64,000 nucleotides of DNA from Escherichia coli O127:H6 str. E2348/69 (GTDB lineage Bacteria > Pseudomonadota > Gammaproteobacteria > Enterobacterales > Enterobacteriaceae): assembly GCF_000026545.1 (NCBI RefSeq), contig NC_011601.1; one strand, written 5' to 3'. The translations under genes were made by a program, and so were the position numbers. The notes below the pieces were generated by a model. That model searched no databases and was not told where the DNA came from. It saw nothing but the letters and a program-made list of their open reading frames with translations. Positions 14,611 to 14,789 of the stretch are shown piece after piece. Numbering within the stretch: position 1 is the stretch's first letter; the number at the start of each line of letters is the position of its first letter.

Positions 14611-14614
14611 TAAT

Positions 14615-14704
14615 ATGAAACGGACAATGCTCTGTCTTTCTCTGCTGGCTGTCAGCTGTAGCGTCAGCGCCGCAAAATACCCTGTTCTGACAGAAAGTAG
14701 TTGA
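14615..14704 (+). pseudogene. 29-codon signal-peptide ORF; possible 5' remnant of a deleted secreted-protein gene (yfeW/PBP4B position in K-12, from memory)
   Basis: MKRTMLCLSLLAVSCSVSAAKYPVLTESS* : signal-peptide-like N-terminus ending in a premature stop; only 180 bp separate murP and yfeX. Confidence 0.3.
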
Positions 14705-14735
14705 TCAAGTGTATGCGGCGTTAAAGCAGTAATAA

Positions 14736-14772
14736 AAAGGCCAGTCAGTTGTGTTACTGGCTGGCCTTTAAT
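14736..14772 (-). terminator. Hairpin terminator downstream of yfeX
   Basis: ggccagtcag...ctggctggcc stem with T-run on the minus strand. Confidence 0.5.
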
Positions 14773-14789
14773 CATCGAATCAGAAACGA

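What the first reader, a model, noticed from the sequence alone, without database searches (positions are those of the whole stretch)
14611..14789. Stranded signal-peptide ORF between murP and yfeX
MKRTMLCLSLLAVSCSVSAAKYPVLTESS* looks like the start of a secreted protein truncated after 29 codons, followed by a hairpin terminator. It is consistent with an internal deletion of a larger gene that left only its 5' end.
Basis: partly seen in the sequence, partly recalled or inferred. Interest (0 to 1): 0.3.

Follow-up and report, generated by a model that had tools for sequence, protein, structure and literature searches.

The report
Deletion remnant of pbp4b (yfeW)
The 29-codon signal-peptide ORF is what is left of the non-essential penicillin-binding protein gene pbp4b (yfeW) after an old 1,184-bp internal deletion that about a quarter of sequenced E. 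coli strains share; it is an ordinary pseudogene remnant that RefSeq already flags as a partial gene.

Summary
The ORF runs 14615-14701 with TGA at 14702-14704. Its first 28 codons are the start of pbp4b/yfeW, the third gene of the K-12 murQ-murP-pbp4b operon (28/29 aa identical to intact PBP4B). A 1,184-bp out-of-frame deletion joins codon 28 to the last 34 nt of the gene at a 2-bp GT microhomology (14697-14698). It removes the whole Beta-lactamase-fold domain. The gene's original stop codon (14730-14732) and the operon's hairpin (14736-14769, -24.5 kcal/mol) survive. The window is identical here to E. coli E2348/69. The same short form is in 1,272 of 5,426 complete E. coli genomes; the rest have intact pbp4b. 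Full-length pbp4b lies next to murP, with convergent yfeX where the contig reaches it, in E. whittamii, Escherichia sp. E1V33 and Citrobacter, so this is a loss. Five short-form loci on at least three flanking haplotypes share the identical junction and a private G->A change, which points to one old deletion spread by recombination. RefSeq already annotates the spot as an incomplete pseudogene. Interest is low. Noticed in passing: this strain and 1,045 others also lack the repressor gene murR and half of a CAP-like site upstream of murQ. That loss is apparently nested within the pbp4b-deleted set, while murQ and murP stay intact.

The parts
12286..13182 (+). murQ (MurNAc-6-P etherase), first gene of the operon; intact
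   Evidence: ORF; RefSeq annotation of the identical E2348/69 locus; dN/dS 0.01-0.09 against other alleles
13186..14610 (+). murP (PTS MurNAc transporter IIBC), second gene; intact; stop TGA at 14608-14610
   Evidence: dN/dS 0.005-0.064
14615..14704 (+). Remnant ORF: 29 codons plus TGA. Codons 1-28 (14615-14698) are the pbp4b 5' end, which encodes the signal peptide and the first residues of the mature protein. Codon 29 (AGT) and the TGA come from the out-of-frame 3' piece.
   Evidence: PGAP marks it pseudo, 'incomplete; missing C-terminus'
14697..14698 (+). Deletion junction: the GT dinucleotide shared by both breakpoints (2-bp microhomology). 1,184 bp (pbp4b nt 85-1268 of 1,302) are missing here.
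   Evidence: left homology to Survcare321 L003 ends at 2799 = window 14698; right homology starts at L003 3982 = window 14697
14699..14732 (+). pbp4b 3' remnant: the last 34 nt of the gene, including its original TAA stop (14730-14732), now out of frame. It carries the short-form-specific G->A at 14708.
14736..14769 (.). GC-rich hairpin shared by the convergent murQ operon and yfeX; native to the locus and present after intact pbp4b too
   Evidence: dG -24.5 on + strand, -21 on - strand; z about -5 to -5.7; same hairpin in K-12, MSHS133 and BL21; a terminator after yfeW is drawn in PMC5061867 Fig. 1, citing Jaeger & Mayer 2008
14790..15689 (-). yfeX (porphyrinogen peroxidase), convergent neighbour; intact

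Best explanation
The ORF is a dead remnant of pbp4b (yfeW). That gene encodes the low-abundance, non-essential DD-carboxypeptidase PBP4B and is the last gene of the murQ-murP-pbp4b operon.

Shown:
- A single 1,184-bp deletion between two GT dinucleotides fused codon 28 to the last 34 nt of the gene. The deletion is out of frame, so translation stops two codons later.
- The whole catalytic Beta-lactamase-fold domain is gone, so no PBP4B can be made.
- The operon's hairpin was untouched. It now sits 31 nt after the remnant's stop.

Inferred:
- The hairpin still ends murQP transcripts and, on the other strand, yfeX transcripts.
- The remnant is probably still co-transcribed with murQP. If it is translated at all, it would give a signal peptide plus a tail of about 9 residues with no function.
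- The deletion happened once, long ago. It persists as a presence/absence polymorphism in E. coli and has moved between lineages by homologous recombination.
For: - Identity of the gene. The remnant is 28/29 aa identical to intact PBP4B residues 1-29, and the NCBIfam PBP4B equivalog NF002968 matches it at profile positions 1-28 only. Intact K-12 PBP4B scores 890 bits against a cutoff of 385. Its Pfam PF00144 domain spans residues 44-412, all inside the deleted segment.
- Breakpoints. They are mapped to the base, with the gene's own 3' end and stop codon retained out of frame.
- Synteny. K-12, MSHS133 and Survcare321 have murP-pbp4b-yfeX at the same place.
- Population. 1,272 of 5,426 complete E. 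coli genomes have the contiguous short form. The rest split exactly at the junction around an annotated pbp4b. 4,150 genomes cover at least 80% of the intact K-12 stretch.
- Polarity. Full-length pbp4b lies next to murP in E. whittamii, Escherichia sp. E1V33, Citrobacter sedlakii and Citrobacter sp., with convergent yfeX in the three whose contig reaches it.
- Single origin. Five short-form loci on at least three flanking haplotypes share the identical junction and a G->A at 14708 that is absent from three full-length alleles. The difference profiles are a mosaic. ETEC4071 equals full-length MSHS133 in murQ and yfeX but is window-like from about 14086 through the junction. ATCC 11775 is about 5% divergent across murQP yet differs at only 1 site in the roughly 125 nt around the junction.
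- Decay. All five changes private to short-form remnants are nonsynonymous: Y7C, V13I, P23T, T26I, S28G.
- Operon structure and dispensability. These come from PMC5061867 and PMC4916385, both citing Vega & Ayala 2006.
Against: - No expression data were examined, so co-transcription, termination at the hairpin and any translation of the remnant are inferred.
- The consensus terminator scan did not call the hairpin.
- The single-origin inference rests on 5 short and 3 full-length loci inspected by eye and by binned differences, not on a formal recombination or phylogenetic analysis.
- The K-12-like flanks within about 45 nt on both sides of the BL21 junction require very short recombination tracts or many events.
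- Five nonsynonymous changes against zero synonymous is too few to prove relaxed selection.
Confidence: 0.93

Rival explanations
1. The same deletion arose independently several times, as a hotspot event at the GT microhomology, rather than once followed by recombination.
For: The short form sits on at least three quite different flanking haplotypes. These include K-12-like flanks in BL21/E100341 within about 45 nt of the junction on both sides.
Against: - A 2-bp microhomology is far too weak to direct repeated identical 1,184-bp deletions.
- All five short forms also share G->A at 14708, 11 nt from the junction, which is absent from all three full-length alleles.
- The mosaic profiles show imported segments that carry the junction.
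Confidence: 0.07
2. The 29-codon ORF is kept by selection as a functional small gene, for example a Sec-targeted peptide or a translationally coupled element that stabilises the murQP mRNA 3' end.
For: - The ORF is open in all five short-form loci and keeps the native start 4 nt after murP's stop.
- The short form is common, in 23% of genomes.
Against: - Openness is expected simply because the deletion created a stop two codons after the junction.
- All five changes private to the remnant are nonsynonymous.
- The parent gene is made at only about 20-30 molecules per generation (PMC4916385).
- There is no Pfam or Rfam match.
- The peptide is only a signal peptide plus about 9 residues.
Confidence: 0.03
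3. The short form is ancestral, and intact pbp4b in other strains is a later insertion or gain.
For: None beyond the bare presence/absence polymorphism.
Against: - The short form contains both the 5' end and the 3' end (with stop codon) of pbp4b, joined out of frame.
- Other Escherichia species and Citrobacter carry the intact gene next to murP, with convergent yfeX where the contig extends that far.
Confidence: 0.01

Closest known systems
pbp4b / yfeW of E. coli K-12 (PBP4B, a low-molecular-weight class C penicillin-binding protein and DD-carboxypeptidase; NCBIfam NF002968)
   Same: It has the same chromosomal position (after murP, convergent with yfeX), the same start codon context, the same first 28 codons (one substitution, Y7C), the same last 34 nt, the same stop codon and the same downstream hairpin.
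   Different: Nucleotides 85-1268 are missing and the frame is broken. Residues 44-412 (Pfam Beta-lactamase fold, including the SNTK active-site motif) are absent, so it cannot be a functional member.
RefSeq/PGAP pseudogene annotation at this locus (e.g. H4J01_RS25335 in E2348/69, K6U01_RS07065 in Rosetta2(DE3), EAS44_RS25530 in ATCC 11775)
   Same: It covers exactly the same 87-nt CDS, flagged 'incomplete; partial in the middle of a contig; missing C-terminus'.
   Different: PGAP labels it only 'hypothetical protein'. It does not name the parent gene, the 3' remnant or the breakpoints.
murQ operon of E. coli K-12 (murQ-murP-yfeW with divergent repressor murR; Jaeger & Mayer 2008 as summarised in PMC5061867)
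   Same: murQ, murP and the terminal hairpin are in the same order and are intact.
   Different: In this strain the operon has lost its third gene (pbp4b). It has also lost its repressor gene murR together with the distal half of a CAP-like site.

Membership tests
PBP4B (NCBIfam NF002968 equivalog) | Whole-protein score at or above the curated cutoff (385 bits) over the 432-position profile | tested here: not met
   The remnant scores 24.3 bits and matches profile positions 1-28 only. Intact K-12 and MSHS133 proteins score 890 and 893 bits.
PBP4B (NCBIfam NF002968 equivalog) | Serine beta-lactamase-like / transpeptidase fold (Pfam PF00144) with the SxxK active-site motif | tested here: not met
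   PF00144 covers residues 44-412 of the K-12 protein and the remnant has no Pfam hit. The SNTK motif (YDLASNTKMYA) lies in the deleted segment.
PBP4B (NCBIfam NF002968 equivalog) | Orthologous N-terminus and genomic position (immediately after murP, convergent with yfeX) | tested here: met
   28/29 aa identity, 138/139 nt identity up to the junction, and the same neighbours.
Pseudogene remnant formed by internal deletion | Homology to both ends of an intact gene, joined with loss of the interior and a broken frame | tested here: met
   The 5' 84 nt and 3' 34 nt of pbp4b are joined, 1,184 bp are missing (1184 mod 3 = 2), and TGA follows two codons after the junction.
Pseudogene remnant formed by internal deletion | Intact orthologue at the same locus in conspecifics and outgroups | tested here: met
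   About 4,150 of 5,426 E. coli genomes; E. whittamii, Escherichia sp. E1V33 and Citrobacter spp..
Pseudogene remnant formed by internal deletion | Relaxed selection on the remnant | tested here: inconclusive
   Five private changes, all nonsynonymous, in five loci. The direction is as expected, but the numbers are too small for a test.
Rho-independent (intrinsic) terminator | Stable GC-rich stem-loop | tested here: met
   14-bp stem, 6-nt loop, dG -24.5 kcal/mol, z -5.05 on the + strand; -21 kcal/mol, z -5.7 on the - strand.
Rho-independent (intrinsic) terminator | U-rich tract immediately 3' of the stem | tested here: inconclusive
   The + strand tail is UUUAAUCAU (weak) and the - strand tail is UUUUUAUUA (good). 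The consensus scan called neither. The - strand stem has one C-A mismatch.
Rho-independent (intrinsic) terminator | Transcripts actually end there | not testable with these tools
   There is only the secondary citation that Jaeger & Mayer 2008 place a terminator after yfeW (PMC5061867).

The most novel reading that the evidence does not exclude
The pbp4b loss is the first of two nested losses that rewired MurNAc catabolism in a large, apparently B2-type E. coli lineage. That lineage includes E2348/69, ATCC 11775, LF82 and PMV-1; the phylogroup assignment is from my own knowledge of these strains and was not tested. First the operon shed its accessory PBP gene. Then, within that background, an ~0.86-kb deletion removed the repressor gene murR and the distal half of a CAP-like site, while murQ and murP stayed under strong purifying selection. 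The prediction is that murQP is expressed without MurNAc-6-P induction, and with altered catabolite control, in about 19% of sequenced E. coli. That would be a lineage-specific metabolic trait possibly relevant to gut or extra-intestinal niches.
Probability: 0.2. Interest if true: 0.4.

Novelty: already known. Interest (0 to 1): 0.12.

Why it matters
The finding itself matters little. PBP4B is a redundant, very low-abundance DD-carboxypeptidase whose loss has no reported growth phenotype, and the remnant is already flagged as a partial pseudogene in RefSeq.

There are three practical points:
- The RefSeq 'hypothetical protein' pseudogene at this spot can be named as pbp4b.
- Widely used strains, namely the BL21/Rosetta derivative examined here and EPEC E2348/69, naturally lack PBP4B. 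This is relevant to PBP-profiling and peptidoglycan work.
- The locus is a clear small example of an old deletion allele carried between E. coli lineages by recombination.

The nested loss of murR is the more interesting lead, because it predicts de-repressed MurNAc catabolism in a large E. coli lineage.

Tried and rejected
- The MAFFT global alignment of short and full-length loci scattered the right flank of the short forms across the gap. I replaced it with local pairwise alignments.
- My first ORF coordinates were off by one (searches failed); they are corrected to 14615-14701.
- The consensus promoter/terminator scan found no terminator at 14300-15000. Folding showed why.
- Rfam at E <= 1 found nothing at 14400-15000, so no known RNA element explains the region.
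- An exact scan for the junction in one-genome-per-species representatives gave 0 hits, so I have no evidence for the deletion outside E. coli. The scan needs an exact match, and the type strain's short form did not turn up either, so that collection's E. coli representative is apparently not a short-form genome.
- Literature searches for yfeW/pbp4B, murR with phylogroup, and yfeT/yfeU/yfeV found no report of lineage-specific loss. One search was too loose to be useful and one search failed on a term that was too short.
- Jaeger & Mayer 2008 (PMC2566201) and the PMC id I recalled for the E2348/69 genome paper (PMC2612414) are not held. Statements about MurR/CAP regulation beyond PMC5061867 therefore rest on my memory of the 2008 abstract.
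- I considered and rejected a lipoprotein reading of the signal peptide. AVSC is a poor lipobox, and VSA|A looks like a signal peptidase I site. This is a reading of the sequence only.
- I did not run structure prediction or the large protein searches, because the answer did not depend on them.

Full report
**1. What is in the sequence.**
Window 14611-14789 is the whole intergenic region between murP (13186-14610, + strand) and yfeX (14790-15689, - strand). It holds an ATG at 14615, 4 nt after the murP stop. Then come 29 codons (MKRTMLCLSLLAVSCSVSAAKYPVLTESS) and a TGA at 14702-14704. A 14-bp-stem hairpin lies at 14736-14769, with dG -24.5 kcal/mol, z = -5.05, and none of 200 shuffles folding as well. 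An ORF of this length is not remarkable in itself (78 ORFs of 20 aa or more in 5.5 kb). Its meaning comes from homology.

**2. What it is.**
The 601 bp around the site are 100% identical to E. coli E2348/69. In K-12, murP is followed by pbp4b (yfeW), which is 434 aa and starts MKRTMLYLSLLAVSCSVSAAKYPVLTESSPEKAGF. The remnant is 28/29 identical to intact PBP4B of strain MSHS133. It matches the NCBIfam PBP4B equivalog NF002968 only at profile positions 1-28 (24 bits, against 890 bits for the intact protein and a cutoff of 385).

Local alignments place the breakpoints to the base. Homology to the closest full-length allele (Survcare321) runs through window 14698 (end of codon 28). It resumes at window 14697 with the last 36 nt of the gene, so the two breakpoints share a GT dinucleotide. 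The missing piece is 1,184 bp (nt 85-1268 of 1,302). That length is not a multiple of three, so the frame shifts and a TGA follows two codons later. The gene's own last 34 nt and its TAA (14730-14732) are still there, out of frame. The Pfam Beta-lactamase domain (residues 44-412) and the SNTK active-site motif lie wholly within the deleted part. Rfam finds nothing here.

**3. The hairpin.**
The same hairpin follows intact pbp4b in K-12, MSHS133 and Survcare321, so it belongs to the locus and was not created by the deletion. PMC5061867, following Jaeger & Mayer 2008, describes the K-12 operon as murQ-murP-yfeW with a terminator after yfeW. The + strand U-tract is weak (UUUAAUCAU). The - strand tract is better (UUUUUAUUA), but that strand's stem has a C-A mismatch. 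This explains why the simple scan called nothing. I read it as a shared terminator-like element for the convergent murQ operon and yfeX. That function is inferred, not shown.

**4. Population and polarity.**

| Class | Genomes (of 5,426 complete E. coli) |
|---|---|
| Contiguous short form | 1,272 |
| At least 80% of the intact K-12 murR-to-pbp4b stretch | 4,150 |

In the genomes without the short form, the query splits at position 298/299 around an annotated pbp4b. PGAP already marks the 87-nt remnant as a pseudogene ('incomplete; missing C-terminus') in every short-form genome I opened.

A degenerate scan for the PBP4B active-site stretch, followed by tblastn, shows full-length pbp4b next to murP in E. 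whittamii (96% aa identity), Escherichia sp. E1V33, Citrobacter sedlakii and another Citrobacter, with a convergent yfeX in the three whose contig reaches it. Together with the retention of both gene ends, this fixes the polarity: the window's state is a loss. An exact scan for the junction in species-representative genomes found nothing.

**5. One event or many.**
The five short-form loci are E2348/69 (the window), ATCC 11775, Rosetta2(DE3)/BL21, E100341 and ETEC4071. They have the identical junction and share an A at 14708 (GATCAAGT) where three full-length alleles have G. Yet they sit on at least three flanking haplotypes.

Binned difference profiles show a mosaic:
- ETEC4071 is nearly identical to full-length MSHS133 in murQ and yfeX, but it is window-like from about 14086 through the junction.
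- ATCC 11775 is about 5% divergent from the window across murQP, but it differs at only one site in the roughly 125 nt around the junction.
- The BL21-type remnant has three private substitutions within 12 nt of the junction, which suggests considerable age.

All five substitutions private to short-form remnants are nonsynonymous (Y7C, V13I, P23T, T26I, S28G). That is the direction expected for a decaying sequence, but there are too few to test. My reading is one old deletion, kept as a polymorphism and moved between lineages by homologous recombination. Recurrent identical deletion at a 2-bp microhomology is much less likely.

**6. Consequences.**
It is shown that no PBP4B can be made. PBP4B is a class C low-molecular-weight PBP with DD-carboxypeptidase activity. 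It is not essential (Vega & Ayala 2006, cited) and is synthesised at only about 20-30 molecules per generation (PMC4916385).

It is inferred that the remnant is still transcribed with murQP and that any product would be a cleaved signal peptide plus a short tail without function. murQ, murP and yfeX are intact, with dN/dS of 0.00-0.15.

**7. Side finding: murR.**
In the window, ucpA (11215-12006) lies only 280 bp from murQ. K-12, BL21, MSHS133, ETEC4071 and Survcare321 have the repressor gene murR in between, while E2348/69 and ATCC 11775 do not.

About 0.86 kb is missing. Roughly 60 nt of decayed murR 3' end remain (window ~12123-12183). The junction lies at a CACA(T) overlap, so that only the promoter-proximal half (TCACA) of a CAP-like site survives. 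That site (TATGA-N6-TCACA) is present in all murR+ alleles.

This form is in 1,046 genomes and is nearly clonal: 1,040 of them are at least 99% identical over the query. An evenly spaced sample of 60 genomes broke down as follows:

| Class | Genomes in sample |
|---|---|
| Both genes intact | 46 |
| pbp4b deleted only | 2 |
| Both deleted | 12 |
| murR deleted only | 0 |

In addition, 4,150 + 1,272 accounts for 5,422 of the 5,425 genomes. The murR loss therefore appears to be nested inside the pbp4b-deleted set.

From my memory of the Jaeger & Mayer 2008 abstract (the paper is not held), deleting murR in K-12 raises murQ transcription about 20-fold and removes the lag on MurNAc, and murQ transcription needs cAMP-CAP at a class I site. 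If that holds here, this lineage should express murQP without induction and with altered catabolite control. This is a hypothesis. I found no paper on it in the held library.

**8. Comparison with what is known, and verdict.**
The feature is not a member of the PBP4B family in any functional sense, because the score, domain and active-site tests all fail. By position and by both retained ends, it is the orthologous locus. It is a textbook deletion pseudogene, already flagged by RefSeq. Novelty: already known. Interest: low (0.12). The most novel reading still open is the two-step rewiring of the MurNAc operon described above (probability about 0.2; modest interest if true).

Noticed in passing
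window ~12007-12285 (scar about 12123-12195); compare L006 1616-2636: The repressor gene murR is deleted between ucpA and murQ (~0.86 kb). About 60 nt of decayed murR 3' end remain, and only the proximal half of a CAP-like site (TATGA-N6-TCACA in murR+ alleles) survives. The deletion is present in 1,046 of 5,426 genomes, is nearly clonal, and appears nested within the pbp4b-deleted set. murQ and murP remain intact under purifying selection.
   Followed up: yes
window 9802-11175 (+), between cysP (8481-9497, -) and ucpA (11215-12006, -): A 457-aa ORF is annotated in E2348/69 as an IS4-like ISEc13 family transposase. ATCC 11775 has cysP directly next to ucpA, so this is a strain- or lineage-specific IS insertion.
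   Followed up: partly
L001 4026-4230 (K-12) and L003 4128-4586 (Survcare321), equivalent to window 14736-14769: The hairpin after pbp4b is an insertion target. K-12 has a ~180-bp REP-like insertion flanked by two copies of the hairpin, and Survcare321 has an IS200C transposase gene inserted just upstream of the hairpin.
   Followed up: partly
window 12286-14610 (murQ, murP) compared with L001, L008, L009, L012, L013: Synonymous divergence between E. coli alleles of murQ and murP is unusually high: dS reaches 0.26, and 0.18 even between two strains that share both deletions. The difference profile is patchy, so this locus looks like a recombination mosaic of deep allelic lineages.
   Followed up: partly
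L087 (DXKH01000140.1, MAG labelled Citrobacter sp. HRGM_Genome_0066): This contig encodes MurP, PBP4B and YfeX at 98-99.7% identity to E. coli K-12, far closer than genuine Citrobacter loci (82-95%). It is probably a mis-binned E. coli contig.
   Followed up: no
loci L014-L093: The exact active-site stretch YDLASNTKMYA of PBP4B also occurs in genomes of Atopobium/Lancefieldella, Collinsella, Leptotrichia, Treponema, Mycoplasmataceae MAGs, Terribacillus and Tetragenococcus. PBP4B-like serine hydrolases with an identical motif may therefore be widely spread beyond Enterobacteriaceae.
   Followed up: no
window 14633-14635: The remnant's signal peptide carries Y7C (TAT->TGT) relative to all intact alleles seen. 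ETEC4071 shares it, but ATCC 11775 and BL21 do not.
   Followed up: partly
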